Shown here in pieces: positions 25,585 to 31,645 of a DNA stretch of 31,645 nt. This DNA comes from an uncultured Mageeibacillus sp. GTDB taxonomy: Bacteria; Bacillota; Clostridia; Saccharofermentanales; DTU023. The translations under genes were made by a program, and so were the position numbers. The stretch's first letter is position 1; every line of letters starts with the position of its first letter. The notes below the pieces were generated by a model. That model made no database searches and had not been told where the DNA came from. It worked only from the letters and a program-made list of their open reading frames with translations. The DNA is taken from assembly GCA_964524395.1 (NCBI GenBank), contig CAZGCS010000003.1, positions 1 to 31,645 on the forward strand, given 5' to 3'.

Positions 25585-26313
25585 ATGGAAGAATCAAAAC
25601 ACGTATTGATCGTGGACGATGACAAGCATATCAGCGAACTGCTCAAGCTCTACTTTGAAAAAGACGGCTTTGAGGTTTCCTCCTGCTATACGGGGGACGC
25701 CGTCATGCCCATGGTTCGCGCTGTCATGCCCGATGTTATCATTTTGGATCTGATGCTGCCTGGCATGAGTGGCTTTGATATCATGCGGCAGTTGCGGCGC
25801 GAGTCGGATGTTCCTGTTTTGATGCTGACTGCACGCAGTGACACCCTGGACAAGATTATAGGTCTGGAGCTGGGCGCGGATGACTACATCCTGAAACCCT
25901 TCGAACCCAAGGAGCTCCTGGCCCGTGTCAAAGCAGTCCTGAGACGCTCCAACTTACCGGCGGCTGCTGTCCAGACTGGTGAAACAAACAAAAAGGAAGT
26001 GGTGACTTATCCCGATCTGGTCGTCGACCGTATCCGCTATGCCGTCCGGATCGGCAACCGGGAGATCGATATGCCGCCCAAGGAGCTGGAGCTTCTCTTT
26101 TTTCTCGCTTCACACCCCAACCGGGTATACACCCGGGATCAGATTCTGGAGCATATCTGGGGCATGGATTACTATGGTGAACAGCGTACCGTTGATGTTC
26201 ATATCAAACGGATCAGGGAAAAACTGGATGTGATTGAACATCCGCTGTGGCAGATCAAAACGGTCTGGAGCGTGGGCTACAAATTTGAATTGAAGGAGCA
26301 GCCCGAACCGTGA
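25585..26313 (+). CDS. OmpR/PhoB-family response regulator
   Basis: Receiver domain LIVDDD...ILDLMLP (phosphoacceptor Asp)...LTAR...GADDYILKPF; winged helix RTVDVHIKRIREKL, IKTVWSVGYKF. Confidence 0.96.
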   Translation: MEESKHVLIVDDDKHISELLKLYFEKDGFEVSSCYTGDAVMPMVRAVMPDVIILDLMLPGMSGFDIMRQLRRESDVPVLMLTARSDTLDKIIGLELGADDYILKPFEPKELLARVKAVLRRSNLPAAAVQTGETNKKEVVTYPDLVVDRIRYAVRIGNREIDMPPKELELLFFLASHPNRVYTRDQILEHIWGMDYYGEQRTVDVHIKRIREKLDVIEHPLWQIKTVWSVGYKFELKEQPEP

Positions 26314-27815
26314 GAAGGTTGTCGCTTTATACCCGCACCCTGCTTACAATTTCGGCCGCAATCCTGATTATCTTCCTGGCGCTTGCCCTGATTTACGGGA
26401 CCATTTACAGCTTTTCCTCCTGGCAACAACGGCAGGAGGAACTGAAGCGCAACGCCGCTGAGCTGGCCAGTCTCACTGAAAACAGGATGGATGCCGCCCA
26501 TACCACCTTTACCAGTACTGACATCACAGGGCATATTGCGTTTGCGGCCCGGTCGACAACGGCCTTTGTCTGGATTGTCAACGCCGGAGGCGAAATTATC
26601 TACCATACAGGAATACCGGCTGAAACCATGGCGCTTCTCGAACGCTCCGGCGGTGACGGAACCGGCGACCCGCTTTTACCTCCGCAAGCCCGCAACATGG
26701 AGCAGGCGGTCTTTTGTCTGGCAGGCGATCAGACCGGCTTTGCCGACCTGCTCCCCGAGGCGGCGGAATGGCTGGTGGCAAGCGCGCCAATCGGCAGGCA
26801 CGGTGATCTCTACACGGGGGAGGTGGTTCTGCTCAAGCGGCATCACACAGAGAATTTCAGCGCTTTCCTTTTGGAACACAATGTACCGATTTCTTTTACC
26901 ATGGCCTTTTTTCTTTCGCTGGCCATCATCATCTGGCTGTCCCGTAACATTACCAGGCCGATTTCCGCCCTGGCCAAGACGGCCAATTCCGTTTATGCCG
27001 GTGACCTTTCCGCCCGGGTCAGCATAGGCGGGGAGCCGGGAAATGACCGGGCTGTTCCGGTAGGTCGCGAAGATGACCTGACCCGGCTGGTCAGAACCTT
27101 CAATATGCTGATCGCGCAGTTTGAGGAGAGGGAACAGCAGCACTCGGAATTTCTGGGCAATGTATCCCACGATCTTCGAACGCCGGTCACTTCCATTGGC
27201 GGTTTCATCGAGGGGATGCGAGACGGTACAATCCCGGAGGAAAAATTTGATTACTATCTGGATATCATCAAGGTGGAGACCAACCGCCTGGAGGGCCTGA
27301 TCAACACCTTATTCGATCAAACGGACCAGGGGGGCCAAGCCGCGTTGAAGCAGGATGTCTTCGATCTCAATGCCTTGATCCGCCAGGTCAAACAATCCTT
27401 CGAACCCATGCTGGCGGAGAAAAAGATTGAGCTGGAAACGGTCTTTGATCACCGCCACGAGGAACCTGTCCGGGCTGTCGGTGATGTGGGCCAGCTGACC
27501 CGGGTTCTTAACAATGTAGTTGCCAACGCCATCCGCTTTACCCCGGATGGAGGCATCATCCTCATCCGCACCAAGGCAGGTGAGCGGTCAATCCGTGTCT
27601 CGGTTGAGGATAACGGGCCCGGTATCGCGGAGGAAGATTTACCCCGGATTTTTGATCGCTTTTACAAGGCGGACAAGTCACGCCACGGTGAGGGGTCCGG
27701 TTTGGGCCTTTACATCGCGCGCGCCTTGATTCAACGCCACGGCCAGCAGATTGAGGCTGGCAGGTCGGCCGATCTGGGCGGCGCCCGTATCCGCTTCACA
27801 GTGGCCAGGCCCTGA
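26310..27815 (+). CDS. Membrane sensor histidine kinase (2 TM, extracytoplasmic domain, HAMP, HisKA, HATPase)
   Basis: Two TMs flanking an extracellular region of about 150 aa; HAMP (ITRPISALA); H-box VSHDLRTP; N-box NVVANAIRFT; G1 DNGPGI; F-box IFDRFYK; G2 GSGLGL. GTGA overlap with the regulator. Confidence 0.96.
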   Translation: MRRLSLYTRTLLTISAAILIIFLALALIYGTIYSFSSWQQRQEELKRNAAELASLTENRMDAAHTTFTSTDITGHIAFAARSTTAFVWIVNAGGEIIYHTGIPAETMALLERSGGDGTGDPLLPPQARNMEQAVFCLAGDQTGFADLLPEAAEWLVASAPIGRHGDLYTGEVVLLKRHHTENFSAFLLEHNVPISFTMAFFLSLAIIIWLSRNITRPISALAKTANSVYAGDLSARVSIGGEPGNDRAVPVGREDDLTRLVRTFNMLIAQFEEREQQHSEFLGNVSHDLRTPVTSIGGFIEGMRDGTIPEEKFDYYLDIIKVETNRLEGLINTLFDQTDQGGQAALKQDVFDLNALIRQVKQSFEPMLAEKKIELETVFDHRHEEPVRAVGDVGQLTRVLNNVVANAIRFTPDGGIILIRTKAGERSIRVSVEDNGPGIAEEDLPRIFDRFYKADKSRHGEGSGLGLYIARALIQRHGQQIEAGRSADLGGARIRFTVARP

Positions 27816-27896
27816 TCCCGGGCAGAAACCGGATGTTCATAAAAAGGTTATATGTGGTCGATAAACTGCTTTTAAGACCAGGCGAGGGGGTAAGTT

Positions 27897-29114
27897 GTGA
27901 CAAAAGATAAAACCCGGCTCATCATCCTGATTGTAGTCTTTTGCCTTGCGGTTCTATTAATCCCCCTGTCATGTCCGGGGCAGAAGCCGGCTGTAACTGA
28001 ACCGGCAACGGAAATGACATCCACGCCCCTTACTACAGAAAGAACTACGACGACGAGTACCACAAGCACGACCTCCAGGACTGAGCCGCACAGTGTTCCG
28101 CCGGAGACGGAAGGGGATCCCCCCCTGCAAGACCCCGGCACTCCGTTGTCGGAACTGTTTGCTGAGGTGGCGCCTTCTGTGGTGTCGGTTCATGTTTCCA
28201 TCCCGGCTTCCTCGCTTTACGCCAAACGGGAAGAATTCTTCTCAGGTCTGATTGTCGATGAATCCGGCATCATTGTCACCACTTACAGCCTCTTGGAACG
28301 GGCTCTCGACTACCGTGGAAACCTTCTGGCGGATGCTTCAATCCACCTTTACGTCCGCGGCTTCGACCAGTCCTTTGAGGCCATGCTTGTAGGCTTCCAG
28401 GCGACGGTTGATTTGGCCCTGCTCAAAGTAAAGGAACCGGGAGACGCGGTTTTCAAGGCTCAGCCCCTGTCCCGGGAACCGGAGCTGGCAGTCGGAACCC
28501 CTGTCTACAGCATTGGCTACCCGCCTGTCCTGATCAAGGAGGGTGGTCTCTCCCCCGGTTATATCATTTCGCTTTACCGCACCTCTTATGAAGAGGACGG
28601 TTCCCCCGTAGGCCTGATCGAAACCAGTATCCCAACCATGACTGTGTACGCAGGCAGCCCCTTGATCAACGAGCAGGGCCAGGTCGTCGCCATTGCCAGC
28701 GGCTATCTCAAGCGGATTTATGTCCAGCATCTGGGTTATGCGGTGCCTTCGCCGATCGTGGCGGATGTGATCAACCGGATCCTGGACAGCCCCGACCAGT
28801 TGCCTGAAGCCAAAGCCACCCTCGGCATCACGGTGCTGGGGGACGGGGAAACCGACAGCCTCCGCCGGATGTTCGGTTATCCCGCAGGGCTGTACATCAA
28901 TCTGGTAAAACCTGAAAGCGCGGCGTACACCTCAGGCTTGAACGCAGGTGATATCCTGCTCAGCATCAACGGCCAGGCCATGGAGGCTGTCAGAGACCTG
29001 ATGACTTTCCTGGGAGGTCAGGCCGTCGGGACCCTGGTTGAGATGACGGTCTACCGGCCGGGGGACGACAGGACCCTGACCCTGACCTGTTACCTGCTTG
29101 AGGAGACACCGTGA
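27897..29114 (+). CDS. HtrA/DegS-like S1C trypsin-fold plus PDZ membrane protein, predicted catalytically inactive
   Basis: N-terminal TM, Thr/Pro linker, APSVVSV, FSGLIVDESGIIVT, DLALLKV, GTPVYSIGYP, AGSPLINEQGQVVAI, PDZ (LGITV...GLNAGDILLSING). The His and Ser triad positions are substituted (TTYSLL, VYAGSPL). Confidence 0.88.
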   Translation: MTKDKTRLIILIVVFCLAVLLIPLSCPGQKPAVTEPATEMTSTPLTTERTTTTSTTSTTSRTEPHSVPPETEGDPPLQDPGTPLSELFAEVAPSVVSVHVSIPASSLYAKREEFFSGLIVDESGIIVTTYSLLERALDYRGNLLADASIHLYVRGFDQSFEAMLVGFQATVDLALLKVKEPGDAVFKAQPLSREPELAVGTPVYSIGYPPVLIKEGGLSPGYIISLYRTSYEEDGSPVGLIETSIPTMTVYAGSPLINEQGQVVAIASGYLKRIYVQHLGYAVPSPIVADVINRILDSPDQLPEAKATLGITVLGDGETDSLRRMFGYPAGLYINLVKPESAAYTSGLNAGDILLSINGQAMEAVRDLMTFLGGQAVGTLVEMTVYRPGDDRTLTLTCYLLEETP

Positions 29115-29782
29115 CCGATTCCCTGCGTGACCGCGCCCACCGGGTAACAGCTGTTTTGACCCGGCATTACCCCGAAGCCACGGTGACCTTGAACCACCAG
29201 GCCCCCTGGGAACTTCTGGTTGGCGCCATCCTGGCTTCCCAGTGTACTGACGCGCGTGTGAATCAGGTTACACCCGCGCTTTTTGACCGTTTCCCCGGCC
29301 CGCAAGCCATGATGGGGGCGGATCAGGACGAGCTGGAAAGCCTGATCAGGACCTGTGGCCTCTTTCGTTCCAAGGCCAGGGCGCTCCGGGGGACTGCCCG
29401 TCTCGTGGTGGAGGAACATGCGGGCCAGGTACCTTCAAGCCAGAAGGAATTGATGGAGCTTCCCGGCGTGGGAAGAAAGATCGCCAACCTGATCATGGGC
29501 GACGCTTTCGGCGCCCAGGCCATCGTCGTCGACACACACTGCGCGCGCATCAGCAACTTGCTTGGCTTCACCGACAGCGACAAGCCGGACCGGATTGAGC
29601 GTGACTTGATAAAACTGATCCCTGAGGAGGCGTGGACACGCTGGGGCCACCTCATGGTGGCGCACGGACGGACTCTTTGCCGGGCCCGGTGCCGCTCTTG
29701 CTTTGAGTGCCCTGTCCGCCTACAGTGCCGCTACGGCATGGCCCTTGACGCTTCAGCGGAAGTGGAGGGTGGTTGTGTCTGA
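29111..29782 (+). CDS. nth: Endonuclease III
   Basis: ELLVGAILASQCTDARVN, HhH motif LPGVGRKIAN (catalytic Lys), VDTH (catalytic Asp), [4Fe-4S] motif C-X6-C-X2-C-X5-C. Confidence 0.96.
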   Translation: MTDSLRDRAHRVTAVLTRHYPEATVTLNHQAPWELLVGAILASQCTDARVNQVTPALFDRFPGPQAMMGADQDELESLIRTCGLFRSKARALRGTARLVVEEHAGQVPSSQKELMELPGVGRKIANLIMGDAFGAQAIVVDTHCARISNLLGFTDSDKPDRIERDLIKLIPEEAWTRWGHLMVAHGRTLCRARCRSCFECPVRLQCRYGMALDASAEVEGGCV

Positions 29783-31645
29783 CAAGGTGGAACCCGGATG
29801 GCTTGAAAACAAACTTTCGGTACTTCCCGGCATCTCGGATAAAAGACAAAAAATGTTCGCCAAGCTGGGAGTGGAAACGCTGCATGACCTGCTTTGGCTT
29901 CTGCCGCGGTCTTACGAGGACTGGCAGGAAAGAGTTCCCGTCGGCAAGCTCCAGGAGGGGGATTTCTTATCCTTCGAAGCTGCCGTTGAGAGTATGCCTT
30001 CCATGGTCCGGCGGGGTAAGCTGACCTGCACGCGTGCCCTTTTGTCAGATGGGAGCGGCTCCATCCAGGGGATTTGGTTCAACCAGCCCTGGCTGGCCGA
30101 TCGTATCCGGCGTGGCGGCAAGTATCTCTTCCGCGGCAGAATTGAGGGGAGAGGGCGGGGGCGCCAGGTCGTCAATCCCGATTTCCGGCCGCTGGACGCG
30201 GGCGGCCTGCCGGTTTTCCTGCCCGTCTATCCACTGACCGCCGGCCTATACCAATGGAATATCCGGCAGGCGGTACAGGCGGTGCTTGACAGGGCTGACC
30301 CCGTCGCGGAGGAATCCCTGCCCCAGCGCGTAAGGACGGAGGCAAAACTGGCGACAGCCGATTTCGCCATGCGCCGTATCCATTTTCCTGCCAGCAAACG
30401 TGACATGGAGGTGGCACGTCGGAGGCTTGCCTTTGAGGAACTCTTTCTGGTCATGGCCGGCCTGCGCGCACTGAAGTCGGGCCGGCACCGGCAAAAGGGG
30501 CCAGTCATGGAAGTTGGCCGGGCAAGCGAAAACTGGCTTGGCGGTCTGATCTCCAGGCTCCCCTTTGAACTGACGGCGTCCCAGCAAGCTGCTTTGCAAA
30601 CCATCTTGGACGATTTCAGGAAAGATGAACCTGCCAACCGGCTTCTTCAAGGCGATGTCGGTTCCGGTAAGACAGTGGTTGCCGCTCTGGCCATGGCAGC
30701 AGCCTGCAAGGAGGGCTACCAGTCGGTCATGATGGCGCCCACTACCATTCTGGCCGGTCAACATGCGAATACTCTGTCCAGACTCCTGGAAGGGAGCGGC
30801 CTTGAAATCGCTCTCTTGACAGGGGCAGTGACAGCAGCCCGGAGAAAAGCCCTGCTTGCCGGACTCAAGGACGGCTCCATCGATATCCTGATAGGTACCC
30901 ACGCGGTACTGGAGACGGATGTTGCTTTCTCCAACCTTGGTTGCTGCGTGACCGATGAACAGCACCGGTTCGGCGTCAGGCAACGTGTTTTGCTGTCGGG
31001 CAGGGGCGACTTGGTGCCCCATGTTCTGGTCATGTCGGCGACCCCCATCCCCAGAACCCTGGCCATGATCCTGTACGGTGATCTGGATATCTCGGAAATC
31101 AGGGATATGCCGGCCGGCAGGCTGGCTGTCAAAACCTATACAGCGACCGGGAAAGATCGACCGCGCCTTGACCGCATGATTGAGAAGCAGATTGAGGAGG
31201 GTCATAAAGTTTACGTGGTCTGCCCCCTGATCGAAGATTCGGAGGCGATGGCTGCCCATTCTGCAGAAGCCGTTTATCAAAGACTGTCAGAAGAGGTCCT
31301 GCCAGGCCGGCGTGTGGCTTTGATGCATGGAAGACTTAAGCCCGGGGAGAAGCTGGCTGTCATGGAGGCTTTCGGGCGCGGCGAGATCGATCTTCTGGTT
31401 TCGACCACGGTGATTGAAGTCGGCATTGACCAGCCGGACGCGACCCTGCTTGTGATTGAAAATGCGGAGCGGTTCGGCCTGTCTCAACTTCATCAGTTGC
31501 GGGGGCGTGTCGGCCGCTCTTCCCGTCAATCCTACTGTATCCTGGTCAGTGACAGCCAGGATCCGCTGATTCGCAAGCGCCTTCAGGTGCTTTGCCGCAA
31601 CCACAGCGGTTTTGCCATCGCGGATCAGGATTTGTTGCTCCGGGG
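29775..31645 (+). CDS. recG: ATP-dependent DNA helicase RecG, 3' end truncated by the window edge
   Basis: GTG 29775 after GGAGGG: MSDKVEPGWLENKLSVLPGISDKRQKMFAKLGVETLHDLLWLLPRSYED; LLQGDVGSGKT, DEQHRFG, MSATPIPRTL, TTVIEVGID, ERFGLSQLHQLRGRVGR. Absent from the ORF track because there is no stop. Confidence 0.97.
   Translation, partial: MSDKVEPGWLENKLSVLPGISDKRQKMFAKLGVETLHDLLWLLPRSYEDWQERVPVGKLQEGDFLSFEAAVESMPSMVRRGKLTCTRALLSDGSGSIQGIWFNQPWLADRIRRGGKYLFRGRIEGRGRGRQVVNPDFRPLDAGGLPVFLPVYPLTAGLYQWNIRQAVQAVLDRADPVAEESLPQRVRTEAKLATADFAMRRIHFPASKRDMEVARRRLAFEELFLVMAGLRALKSGRHRQKGPVMEVGRASENWLGGLISRLPFELTASQQAALQTILDDFRKDEPANRLLQGDVGSGKTVVAALAMAAACKEGYQSVMMAPTTILAGQHANTLSRLLEGSGLEIALLTGAVTAARRKALLAGLKDGSIDILIGTHAVLETDVAFSNLGCCVTDEQHRFGVRQRVLLSGRGDLVPHVLVMSATPIPRTLAMILYGDLDISEIRDMPAGRLAVKTYTATGKDRPRLDRMIEKQIEEGHKVYVVCPLIEDSEAMAAHSAEAVYQRLSEEVLPGRRVALMHGRLKPGEKLAVMEAFGRGEIDLLVSTTVIEVGIDQPDATLLVIENAERFGLSQLHQLRGRVGRSSRQSYCILVSDSQDPLIRKRLQVLCRNHSGFAIADQDLLLR

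What the first reader, a model, noticed from the sequence alone, without database searches (positions are those of the whole stretch)
28260..28670. HtrA-like protein has lost catalytic His and Ser (predicted pseudoprotease)
Seen: canonical IVTNAHVV aligns to IVTTYSLL (His to Ser, AGC at 28287). IQTDAAINPGNSGGPLVN aligns without gaps to IETSIPTMTVYAGSPLIN (Ser to Ala, GCA at 28650; oxyanion-hole Gly to Val). The Asp is kept (VDLALLK, 28410). The frame is intact and the fold motifs and PDZ are preserved, which argues against decay. Established: the His-Asp-Ser triad is required for S1C proteolysis, and DegP S-to-A variants keep chaperone activity. Inference: a naturally evolved chaperone, sensor or scaffold.
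Basis: partly seen in the sequence, partly recalled or inferred. Interest (0 to 1): 0.72.

Follow-up and report, generated by a model that had tools for sequence, protein, structure and literature searches.

The report
Conserved protease-dead HtrA beside a two-component system
This gene encodes a membrane-tethered HtrA-type protein that has lost the residues needed to cut proteins yet is kept under strong selection across a whole group of anaerobic-digester Clostridia, so it is a real natural "dead protease" whose new, non-cutting job is still unknown.

Summary
ORF 27897-29114 (+, 405 aa) has an HtrA fold (Trypsin_2 plus one PDZ). Ser131 stands where the catalytic His should be, Asp172 is kept, and Ala252 stands where the nucleophile Ser should be. 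The oxyanion motif GNSGG reads VYAGS.

It is not decay. All 31 close relatives (48-100% identity; 19 species-level MAGs) carry the same S-D-A pattern. dN/dS of the folded part is 0.10-0.14. Four independent public assemblies reproduce the gene.

New findings:
- The S-D-A clade is one branch of a larger His-less group (113 of 479 proteins scored) that forms one clade (299/300 NJ bootstraps). The other two triad positions vary across it (GGS, SGS, AGS, ESE and others).
- Every locus examined sits in the same slot: ftsZ-nrdR-response regulator-histidine kinase-X-nth-recG.
- In sister lineages that slot holds a normal H-D-S HtrA. The triad was therefore lost in place in an orthologue, not in a spare duplicate.
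- The former cleft loops are the most conserved parts of the protein.

Most likely it is a non-catalytic extracytoplasmic peptide binder working with the adjacent two-component system. The exact role is untested, and I could not check whether an active HtrA paralogue exists in the same genomes.

The parts
25585..26313 (+). OmpR-family response regulator (242 aa), first gene of the conserved RR-HK-HtrA* trio
   Evidence: Pfam Response_reg + Trans_reg_C. Best NCBIfam models are MtrA/PhoB/YycF, all below cut-off. Present upstream of the HtrA* gene in every related locus that has upstream sequence.
26310..27815 (+). Sensor histidine kinase (501 aa): TM1 ~10-30, ~155-aa extracytoplasmic domain, TM2 ~190-210, HAMP, HisKA, HATPase_c. 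Its start overlaps the RR stop.
   Evidence: Pfam. Hydropathy and per-region conservation: the extracytoplasmic domain at 0.99 bits is about as conserved as the ATPase domain at 0.90. dN/dS 0.07.
27884..27890 (+). Shine-Dalgarno-like GAGGGGG, 6 nt before the GTG start. The 81-nt HK-HtrA* gap holds no terminator-like site.
   Evidence: Read. The terminator scan found nothing in 27816-27896.
27897..29114 (+). HtrA-family pseudoprotease gene (405 aa), the subject of the finding
27897..27974 (+). N-terminal signal sequence ending in the invariant Cys26 (PLSC): probable lipoprotein signal, with an atypical Pro at -3
   Evidence: Cys26 is invariant in 31/31. The strict PROSITE-style lipobox rule is met in 7/31 and a loose rule in 30/31. 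Nearest relatives have LMGC/VSGC/LTGC. The model shows a helix at residues 4-25.
27975..28148 (+). Thr/Ser/Pro-rich disordered linker (residues 27-84)
   Evidence: pLDDT <50 for residues 34-62. Highest entropy in the protein, 2.09 bits. dN/dS 0.14-0.33.
28149..28793 (+). Chymotrypsin-fold (Trypsin_2) domain without a catalytic triad (residues 85-299)
   Evidence: Pfam PF13365. pLDDT mostly >90. Foldseek matches DegP/DegQ/Deg1/DegS/MucD at E 1e-20 to 6e-23.
28287..28289 (+). AGC = Ser131 at the catalytic His position
   Evidence: Invariant in the clade.
28410..28412 (+). GAT = Asp172, the retained triad Asp
28644..28658 (+). Val250-Tyr251-Ala252-Gly253-Ser254 in place of the G-N-S-G-G oxyanion/nucleophile motif. 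Ala252 (28650-28652) is at the Ser position.
   Evidence: Y251, A252 and G253 are invariant. Position 250 is always bulky (V/I/L/H/Y). Position 254 varies (S/G/C/A), so it is not a substitute nucleophile.
28815..29090 (+). PDZ domain (residues 307-398) with a retained carboxylate-binding loop Leu309-Gly310-Ile311 (28821-28829)
   Evidence: Pfam PDZ_2/PDZ/PDZ_6. G310 and I311 are invariant. pLDDT >90.
29111..29782 (+). Endonuclease III (nth) homologue. Its GTG start overlaps the HtrA* stop by 4 nt. It follows HtrA* directly in all seven related loci with gene tables (start overlapping the stop in most).
   Evidence: Pfam HhH-GPD + HHH. Synteny.
29775..31645 (+). 5' part of recG, open to the end of the window (context only)
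   Evidence: 623 codons without a stop and with helicase motifs. recG follows nth in all related loci.

Best explanation
The gene encodes an extracytoplasmic, membrane-tethered HtrA orthologue that can no longer hydrolyse peptide bonds by the serine-protease mechanism. It is kept because it binds something. A signal sequence ending in a conserved Cys (probably lipid-modified) and a ~58-residue disordered Thr/Ser/Pro linker hold a protease-fold domain plus one PDZ domain outside the membrane. The ancestor was an active HtrA encoded directly after an OmpR-type response regulator and a HAMP histidine kinase. The catalytic His was lost once, the other catalytic positions then drifted, and the protein diverged rapidly while keeping its fold, its PDZ peptide-binding loop and, most strongly, the remodelled loops of the old substrate cleft. 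The most likely working mode is inferred, not shown. The PDZ and the dead cleft capture exposed C-termini or unfolded segments of envelope or secreted proteins without cutting them. This binding acts within the pathway of the neighbouring two-component system, either by holding or sequestering its inducing clients (a holdase-type effector) or by reporting them to the kinase's ~155-residue outer domain. Shown: loss of the triad, conservation, purifying selection, fold, orthology with active HtrAs, fixed gene neighbourhood. Inferred: lipid anchoring, co-transcription, peptide binding, link to kinase signalling.
For: Triad loss. Invariance of S131/D172/A252 in 31/31 relatives, with no invariant His or Lys anywhere. 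Present in 19 GTDB species representatives, all MAGs from digesters or bioreactors. Purifying selection: dN/dS of the folded part is 0.10-0.14 at dS 0.8-1.2, against 0.07 for the kinase and 0.035 for the regulator in the same genome pairs. Fold: AlphaFold2 pLDDT 84.8, pTM 0.74; Foldseek top hits are DegP/DegQ/Deg1/DegS/MucD. Single origin: His-less proteins form one clade in 299/300 NJ bootstraps with the motif columns removed. The triad positions vary across that clade: SDA 46, SGS 17, GGS 13, AGS 8, and singletons such as ESE, TDS, SDP. This is the pattern expected once chemistry no longer matters. Orthology with active enzymes: H-D-S proteins P0353 and P0359 occupy the same RR-HK-X-nth-recG-rsmD-coaD slot after the dcw/ftsZ genes, with nrdR called in P0353's locus only. 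His-less P0004, P0022, P0029, P0276, P0247 and P0104 occupy it as well, and RR and HK were found upstream in all loci with sequence there. Binding function: within the clade the lowest-entropy regions are loop LA (0.56 bits), the strand at the His position (0.62), L1 (0.63), L3 (0.73), L2 (0.79) and the C-tail (0.75), against 1.0 for the folded average. The PDZ carboxylate-binding loop LGI is invariant. Operon logic: a 4-nt overlap with nth, an 81-nt gap after the kinase with no terminator-like site. Precedent: proteolytically inactive B. subtilis HtrA still improves fitness under CssRS-sensed secretion stress (PMC10715036). From my own knowledge, the DegP S210A variant retains chaperone activity.
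Against: No biochemical or expression data exist; no RNA run holds the gene. The gene neighbourhood is ancestral and shared with the active orthologues, so it does not by itself point to a new signalling role for the dead form. Very high conservation of specific charged and aromatic cleft residues (Y108, R111, E113, Y227, E233, E242, Y251, R273, Y275) fits a single dedicated partner better than a general holdase, and I cannot name that partner. The lipobox is atypical (Pro at -3; only 7/31 pass the strict rule). No atomic coordinates were available, so the geometry of the dead cleft was not inspected. I could not establish whether the same genomes keep an active HtrA.
Confidence: 0.55

Rival explanations
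1. Dedicated third component of the two-component system. The dead HtrA is a co-receptor or inhibitor that binds the kinase's extracytoplasmic domain directly and sets its activity. LpqB does this for MtrB, YycH/YycI for WalK, and CpxP for CpxA.
For: The RR-HK-HtrA* order is kept across the whole His-less group, down to 29-35% protein identity. Both the kinase's 155-residue sensor domain and HtrA* lie outside the membrane, and the sensor domain is conserved. The regulator scores best with MtrA/YycF-type models. Fast divergence after His loss followed by tight conservation of the cleft loops suggests a new specific partner.
Against: Active orthologues sit in the same slot, so the linkage predates the loss of activity. 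It is also explained by the common 'TCS controls its own htrA' arrangement seen in other digester Clostridia. One active orthologue is paired with a kinase that lacks any outer domain. No interaction test was possible.
Confidence: 0.25
2. Non-catalytic partner of a still-active HtrA paralogue. It would form mixed oligomers or otherwise activate or restrain a real protease, as MamO promotes MamE-dependent proteolysis.
For: HtrAs work as trimers and higher oligomers. MamO, a degenerate HtrA-like protein, is required for MamE activity independently of its own triad (PMC4794232). Active HtrAs in other RR-HK-HtrA operons are common in digester MAGs carrying the same NCBI label 'Clostridiaceae bacterium' that many dead-clade MAGs carry.
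Against: The dead copy did not arise by duplication beside an active copy; it is the orthologue of the active enzyme. No second HtrA lies in the window or in the +/-10 kb of the seven related loci whose gene tables were listed. The active HtrAs I traced belong to other assemblies.
Confidence: 0.1
3. Still a hydrolase that uses a non-canonical catalytic arrangement, for example Ser131 with Asp172, or a Ser/Lys pair.
For: Ser131 and Asp172 are invariant in the S-D-A clade and would lie side by side in the old active site. The old cleft is the most conserved region.
Against: No His is invariant. The only nearby Lys (K272) is Arg in several members. The oxyanion Gly is replaced by bulky residues and the nucleophile by Ala. 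Across the wider His-less clade the residue at position 131 is S/T/G/A/Y/E/D and Asp172 is often Gly, so no shared chemistry is conserved. I know of no such mechanism in the chymotrypsin fold.
Confidence: 0.04
4. A neutral relic: a recently inactivated gene on its way to being lost.
For: Two of three catalytic residues are gone, and all HtrA NCBIfam models score far below their cut-offs.
Against: The frame is intact in 31 clusters and 19 species representatives. dN/dS is 0.10-0.14. The catalytic-site substitutions themselves are invariant. The model is confident. Four independent assemblies give the same sequence.
Confidence: 0.01

Closest known systems
HtrA/DegP/DegQ/DegS serine endopeptidases (MEROPS S1C), especially the membrane-anchored single-PDZ HtrAs of Gram-positive bacteria
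   Same: Same fold and domain order (anchor, linker, chymotrypsin-fold domain, one PDZ) and same extracytoplasmic placement. Clear sequence and structure homology. It is the positional orthologue of active H-D-S HtrAs in sister lineages.
   Different: No catalytic His, no nucleophile Ser, no oxyanion Gly. Scores 89 bits against a 416-bit cut-off for the Do-family model. Probable lipoprotein anchor instead of a TM anchor. Evolves much faster: 26% identity to the active orthologues against 51% among them.
MamO and the degenerate MamE paralogues of magnetotactic bacteria (PMC4794232)
   Same: HtrA/trypsin-2-family proteins with a degenerate triad, a non-Gly residue at position 193 and a bulky aromatic in loop L1. 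They are retained by selection for non-catalytic roles.
   Different: MamO binds transition metals through a di-His motif and carries a TauE transporter domain. Here no His is conserved and there is no extra domain. The magnetosome pseudoproteases arose by duplication or acquisition beside an active protease. Here the single orthologue itself lost activity in place. The phylum and cellular context also differ.
CssRS-HtrA/HtrB secretion-stress module of Bacillus subtilis, with its engineered protease-dead HtrA, and related TCS-htrA pairings (CutRS/CssRS in Streptomyces)
   Same: A two-component system paired with a membrane-anchored HtrA that deals with misfolded exported proteins. A protease-dead HtrA still benefits cells (PMC10715036; PMC12802291). 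RR-HK-HtrA operons are common in digester Clostridia.
   Different: Those HtrAs are naturally active; the dead form is a laboratory mutant. The regulon of the TCS in this window is unknown, and its regulator resembles MtrA/PhoB/YycF-type models equally well.
Extracytoplasmic accessory proteins of essential cell-envelope TCSs: LpqB with MtrAB (Actinobacteria), YycH/YycI with WalRK (Bacilli)
   Same: A membrane-tethered, outward-facing protein encoded directly after the kinase gene and conserved with it. Here the location is next to cell-division and cell-wall genes.
   Different: No homology to LpqB or YycH/I. No evidence here of binding to the kinase. The linkage is inherited from an active protease ancestor.

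Membership tests
HtrA / S1C serine endopeptidase | Chymotrypsin-fold (Trypsin_2) protease domain | tested here: met
   Pfam PF13365, E 1.1e-15. AlphaFold model pLDDT 84.8. Foldseek to DegP/DegQ/DegS, E down to 6e-23.
HtrA / S1C serine endopeptidase | At least one C-terminal PDZ domain | tested here: met
   PDZ_2, PDZ and PDZ_6 all above cut-off, residues 308-396. The LGI carboxylate-binding loop is invariant.
HtrA / S1C serine endopeptidase | His-Asp-Ser catalytic triad | tested here: not met
   Ser131 / Asp172 / Ala252.
HtrA / S1C serine endopeptidase | Oxyanion-hole / L1 motif G-N-S-G-G | tested here: not met
   V-Y-A-G-S in the window. Position 193 is never Gly in the clade.
HtrA / S1C serine endopeptidase | Score above the curated NCBIfam cut-offs (Do family, HtrA, DegS and others) | tested here: not met
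   Best is TIGR02037 at 89.3 bits against a cut-off of 416.2.
HtrA / S1C serine endopeptidase | Trimer-based oligomer | not testable with these tools
   Only monomer prediction was available.
HtrA-family pseudoprotease (MamO type) | Degenerate triad, non-Gly at position 193 and a bulky L1 residue, conserved across a clade | tested here: met
   The criteria are as described in PMC4794232.
HtrA-family pseudoprotease (MamO type) | Surface di-His metal-binding motif and fused TauE domain | tested here: not met
   No invariant His in the clade. Only Trypsin_2 and PDZ domains are present.
HtrA-family pseudoprotease (MamO type) | Arose as a duplicate or second copy beside an active protease | tested here: not met
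   Active orthologues occupy the same syntenic slot in sister lineages. No second HtrA lies in the window or in the loci with gene tables.
Accessory 'third component' of a two-component system (LpqB / YycHI type) | Gene conserved directly after the kinase gene; product faces outward and is membrane-tethered | tested here: met
   Synteny. Signal/anchor sequence.
Accessory 'third component' of a two-component system (LpqB / YycHI type) | Physical and functional interaction with the kinase sensor domain | not testable with these tools
   No complex prediction or experiment was possible.
Bacterial lipoprotein | Signal peptide with lipobox [LVI][ASTVI][GAS]C | tested here: inconclusive
   Cys26 is invariant (31/31), but the window has P-L-S-C with Pro at -3. 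The strict rule is met in 7/31. Relatives have LMGC, VSGC, LTGC, AAGC.

The most novel reading that the evidence does not exclude
In a group of Clostridia that includes Saccharofermentanales-labelled MAGs (taxonomic extent not formally established), the HtrA encoded in a two-component-system operon was converted, once and in place, from a quality-control protease into a ligand-binding co-receptor for its own histidine kinase. That would make a protease-derived 'three-component' envelope-sensing system, with the dead substrate cleft and the PDZ as the signal-recognition site.
Probability: 0.2. Interest if true: 0.72.

Novelty: new variant of a known kind. Interest (0 to 1): 0.5.

Why it matters
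Natural pseudoproteases of the HtrA family have so far been characterised in bacteria mainly in magnetosome formation (MamO), where they arose from spare copies.

- **A different route.** Here the single HtrA orthologue tied to a two-component system lost its chemistry, yet stayed under strong selection across many species. That gives a natural experiment separating the non-proteolytic functions of HtrA (binding, holdase, signalling) from proteolysis in Gram-positive envelopes. These functions have mostly been studied with engineered Ser-to-Ala mutants.
- **An annotation problem.** The source names shown for these proteins are 'serine protease', 'S1C family serine protease' or 'serine protease Do', although 113 of the 479 proteins scored lack the catalytic His.
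- **Limits.** All carriers identified here are metagenome-assembled genomes (cultured relatives were not examined), no function is demonstrated, and dead enzymes are a well-known general phenomenon.

Tried and rejected
1. Searching for a second, active HtrA in the same genomes did not succeed.
   - The window has none.
   - Active HtrAs P0374, P0393 and P0458, named '[Clostridiaceae bacterium]' like many dead-clade MAGs, were traced to assemblies JAAYLX01, DUNT01 and others. None of these match the WGS prefixes of the dead-clade loci.
   - NCBI protein accession blocks also differ.
2. Expression evidence: no RNA run holds the gene. Only DNA metagenomes do.
3. Promoter and terminator scans gave only chance-level consensus hits. 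Co-transcription is inferred from spacing alone.
4. Literature searches found no description of this clade. The 'WalK' query was swamped by the word 'walk'.
5. A Biopython bootstrap timed out. A first numpy version produced NaN distances and was discarded. The corrected run is.
6. YN00 dN/dS failed for most pairs because of saturation. NG86 on closer pairs was used instead.
7. Predicting a complex between the kinase outer domain and HtrA* with a fused sequence was considered but not attempted.
8. A rebuilt triad was rejected on sequence grounds only. No coordinates were returned, so the cleft geometry was not inspected.
9. Metal binding as in MamO was considered and rejected, because the clade has no conserved His or Cys cluster in the folded part.
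Full report
**1. The observation**

The window holds one intact ORF at 27897-29114 on the + strand. It has a GTG start, encodes 405 aa, and is preceded by GAGGGGG. Pfam finds a Trypsin_2 domain (residues 116-266, E 1e-15) and a PDZ domain (310-396).

phmmer alignments to solved DegP, DegQ and MucD structures lay 'IQTDVAINPGNSGGPL' on 'IETSIPTMTVYAGSPL' without gaps. Read directly from the DNA:

- codon 131 is AGC at 28287 (Ser where HtrAs have the catalytic His, TNxHV -> TTYSLL);
- codon 172 is GAT at 28410 (Asp kept);
- codon 252 is GCA at 28650 (Ala where the nucleophile Ser should be);
- the oxyanion-hole Gly two residues earlier is Val250.

All curated HtrA/DegP/DegS NCBIfam models score far below their cut-offs; the best is 89 bits against 416. 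Contigs assembled independently from four public metagenome runs of three studies reproduce the ORF. They show one substitution in the linker (28068 A>G), no indels, and no change at the triad codons. The sequence is therefore not an assembly artefact.

**2. It is a conserved protein, not a decaying gene**

A search of 5.8 billion proteins returned a tight clade of 31 clusters at 48-100% identity, then a gap to ordinary HtrAs at 30% identity or less.

- In the alignment all 31 carry Ser/Asp/Ala at the three triad positions. Tyr251-Ala252-Gly253 is invariant and position 250 is always bulky. The active outgroups carry TNxHV / DLA / GNSGG.
- No His and no Lys is invariant anywhere in the clade. 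Ser254 is replaced by G/C/A in some members. On sequence grounds, neither a classical triad nor a Ser/Lys dyad can be rebuilt.
- A scan of one genome per GTDB species found the clade in 19 species representatives. All are MAGs from digesters, anaerobic membrane bioreactors and similar sources, labelled Mageeibacillus sp., Clostridiaceae bacterium or Saccharofermentanales bacterium. The best match is 78% identical to the window.
- Runs that hold the window sequence are bioreactor, digester, landfill and wastewater metagenomes.

| Gene (window vs three closest loci) | dN/dS | Note |
|---|---|---|
| HtrA*, folded part | 0.10-0.14 | dS 0.8-1.2 |
| HtrA*, linker | 0.14-0.33 | |
| Histidine kinase | 0.07 | same genome pairs |
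| Response regulator | 0.035 | same genome pairs |

These values are; one search gave the same picture. An AlphaFold2 model built on 85 sequences is confident (pLDDT 84.8, pTM 0.74; residues 84-405 mostly above 90). Its best PDB matches are DegP, DegQ, Deg1, DegS and MucD, with E values from 1e-20 to 6e-23.

**3. Anatomy**

- **Residues 1-26:** a hydrophobic signal sequence ending in Cys26. This Cys is invariant in 31/31. The motif in the window, P-L-S-C, has an atypical Pro at -3, and only 7/31 pass a strict lipobox rule. The nearest relatives have LMGC, VSGC, LTGC or AAGC. A lipoprotein anchor is probable but not proven.
- **Residues 27-84:** a Thr/Ser/Pro-rich segment that is disordered (pLDDT <50) and fast-evolving. 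It is plausibly a spacer that lets the folded part reach into the wall zone.
- **Residues 85-299:** the protease-fold domain.
- **Residues 307-398:** the PDZ domain, whose carboxylate-binding loop Leu-Gly-Ile is invariant.

Within the clade, the least variable segments are the loops that formed the substrate cleft in the active ancestor:

| Segment | Entropy (bits) |
|---|---|
| Loop LA (PASSLYAKREE) | 0.56 |
| Strand at the His position | 0.62 |
| L1 | 0.63 |
| L3 | 0.73 |
| C-terminal YLLEE tail | 0.75 |
| L2 | 0.79 |
| Folded-part average | 1.0 |

The chemistry is gone, yet the cleft is the most constrained part of the protein. That argues for binding rather than mere scaffolding.

**4.

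A profile of the clade was scored against 1.84 billion representative proteins. The hits just below the clade (160-450 bits) also lack the His. Many have lost the Asp as well (TGLAVL) while keeping the Ser motif (CSGGPLLN). Below about 150 bits the hits are normal H-D-S enzymes.

A second word-indexed search with these proteins added about 45 more. In an hmmalign read-out of 479 proteins, 113 are His-less: SDA 46, SGS 17, GGS 13, AGS 8, SDS 4, plus singletons such as TDS, SDP, ESE, AGA, TDA, DGQ and EDT.

In a neighbour-joining analysis with the motif columns removed, all His-less proteins form one clade in 299 of 300 bootstraps. That clade is sister to a group of active HtrAs. NJ on divergent sequences can suffer long-branch attraction, so this needs a likelihood analysis. 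Synteny, however, points independently the same way.

The pattern is one loss of the His followed by free variation at the other two catalytic positions between sub-branches. That is what is expected when catalysis is no longer selected. The His-less proteins are also much more diverged: 26-33% identity to the active syntenic group, against 51% within that group.

**5. Genomic context and orthology**

Upstream in the window lie the dcw genes checked with Pfam (murG, ftsQ and ftsZ), then nrdR, an OmpR-type response regulator (25585-26313) and a HAMP/HisKA/HATPase kinase (26310-27815). Downstream lies nth, whose start overlaps the HtrA* stop, and then recG, which is cut by the window end.

- The same order (ftsZ-nrdR-RR-HK-X-nth-recG-rsmD-coaD) was found for P0004 (76% identity), P0022 (52%) and P0029 (53%).
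- It was also found for distant His-less members: P0276 (AGS; on a 3.15-Mb contig), P0247 (GGS) and P0104 (ESE).
- RR and HK were detected upstream in every S-D-A locus that has upstream sequence.

Two proteins with a full H-D-S triad and GNSGG motif occupy the same slot. They are P0353, and P0359 from a MAG labelled Saccharofermentanales bacterium. They share the ~11-residue insertion after the His strand and the C-terminal LQE tail with the dead proteins.

So the window protein is the orthologue of an active HtrA linked to a two-component system, and it lost its triad in place. It is not a degenerate duplicate. Other active HtrAs in digester Clostridia sit in separate RR-HK-HtrA operons or elsewhere. 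This shows that TCS-htrA coupling is common in these organisms.

The kinase has two TM segments flanking a ~155-residue outer domain that is as conserved as its ATPase domain. The regulator scores best, but below cut-off, with MtrA, PhoB and YycF models.

**6. How it most likely works**

*Shown:*
- the protein cannot use the S1 mechanism;
- it is folded, exported or anchored by sequence criteria, and under purifying selection;
- its PDZ binding loop and old cleft are the most conserved features;
- its gene has stayed directly after the same kinase gene since before the activity was lost.

*Inferred:*
- it binds exposed C-termini or unfolded stretches of envelope or secreted proteins without cleaving them;
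- it acts within the adjacent two-component pathway, either as a holdase-type effector or feedback element, or as a reporter to the kinase's outer domain.

Precedents: protease-dead B. subtilis HtrA still improves fitness under CssRS-sensed secretion stress (PMC10715036). TCSs controlling htrA genes are also conserved in Streptomyces (PMC12802291). From my own knowledge, DegP S210A keeps chaperone activity.

I put about 0.55 on this general model. About 0.25 goes to the sharper co-receptor version and about 0.1 to a MamO-like role as partner of an active paralogue. A non-canonical hydrolase and a neutral relic are each well below 0.05.

**7. Comparison with known systems**

- **HtrA/S1C.** The protein is a homologue and structural member of the HtrA/S1C fold family. 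It fails the family's defining catalytic features, so it should not be filed as an S1C peptidase.
- **MamO.** This is the closest characterised analogue, together with the degenerate MamE paralogues (PMC4794232). They share a degenerate triad, a non-Gly at position 193 and a bulky L1 residue. The window protein differs in lacking the di-His metal site and the TauE domain, in keeping a PDZ, and in its origin (orthologous conversion rather than duplication).
- **LpqB and YycH/I.** It resembles these accessory proteins only in gene position and topology, not in fold.

My literature searches found no description of this clade. No curated NCBIfam model covers it.

**8. What could not be done**

- I could not determine whether carriers also keep an active HtrA, because there was no whole-genome access.
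- No transcript data exist.
- I had no coordinates to inspect the dead cleft.
- No complex prediction with the kinase was possible.

**9. Verdict**

The added value is the order-level picture: a single ancient loss of the catalytic His in a TCS-linked HtrA orthologue, followed by divergence and strong re-stabilisation of a remodelled cleft. It is a new variant of a known kind (bacterial HtrA-family pseudoprotease). Interest is moderate (0.5). It is a well-supported natural case for studying the non-proteolytic functions of HtrA, but the carriers are uncultured and no function has been demonstrated.

Noticed in passing
related proteins P0092-P0107, P0239-P0278 (for example locus L007 10001-11245, L008 10001-11299): Sister branches of the His-less clade have also lost the triad Asp (TGLAVL) but keep an intact-looking Ser motif (CSGGPLLN): GGS, SGS or AGS patterns, about 45 proteins. 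They sit in the same RR-HK-X-nth slot.
   Followed up: partly
window 27897-27974; P0090, P0091, P0104 and other relatives: Change of anchor type inside the His-less clade. The S-D-A branch and its nearest relatives have a signal peptide ending in Cys (PLSC, LMGC, VSGC, LTGC). The other His-less proteins and the active orthologues have a plain uncleaved TM anchor.
   Followed up: partly
L033-L042 (gene 4001-5353 in L038), L043, L044-L053: Separate RR-HK-HtrA operons with fully active H-D-S HtrAs (P0374, P0393, P0458) occur in other digester MAGs labelled 'Clostridiaceae bacterium'. One lies next to an agrB / LytTR quorum-sensing cluster. No link to genomes carrying the dead copy could be shown.
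   Followed up: partly
L032 8992-9984: In the MAG with the active syntenic orthologue P0359, the kinase is only about 330 aa and has no TM segments or outer domain. Elsewhere the kinases are 491-514 aa. ftsZ is present there (ORF from about 6285) although no gene was called.
   Followed up: partly
window 30246-31280 (- strand): A 344-aa ORF with no Pfam hit lies antisense inside the recG reading frame (29775 to the window end, 623 codons open). It is most likely a spurious ORF of GC-rich DNA.
   Followed up: yes
P0090 (433 aa, T-D-S): This protein keeps the Ser (ICSGGPVIN) yet groups with the S-D-A clade in 280/300 NJ bootstraps. The Ser-to-Ala change is therefore later than the His loss and may not be strictly single.
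   Followed up: no
window 28068: The only difference inside the ORF between the window and four independent public assemblies is A>G at 28068, in the Thr/Ser/Pro linker. All four runs carry G.
   Followed up: yes
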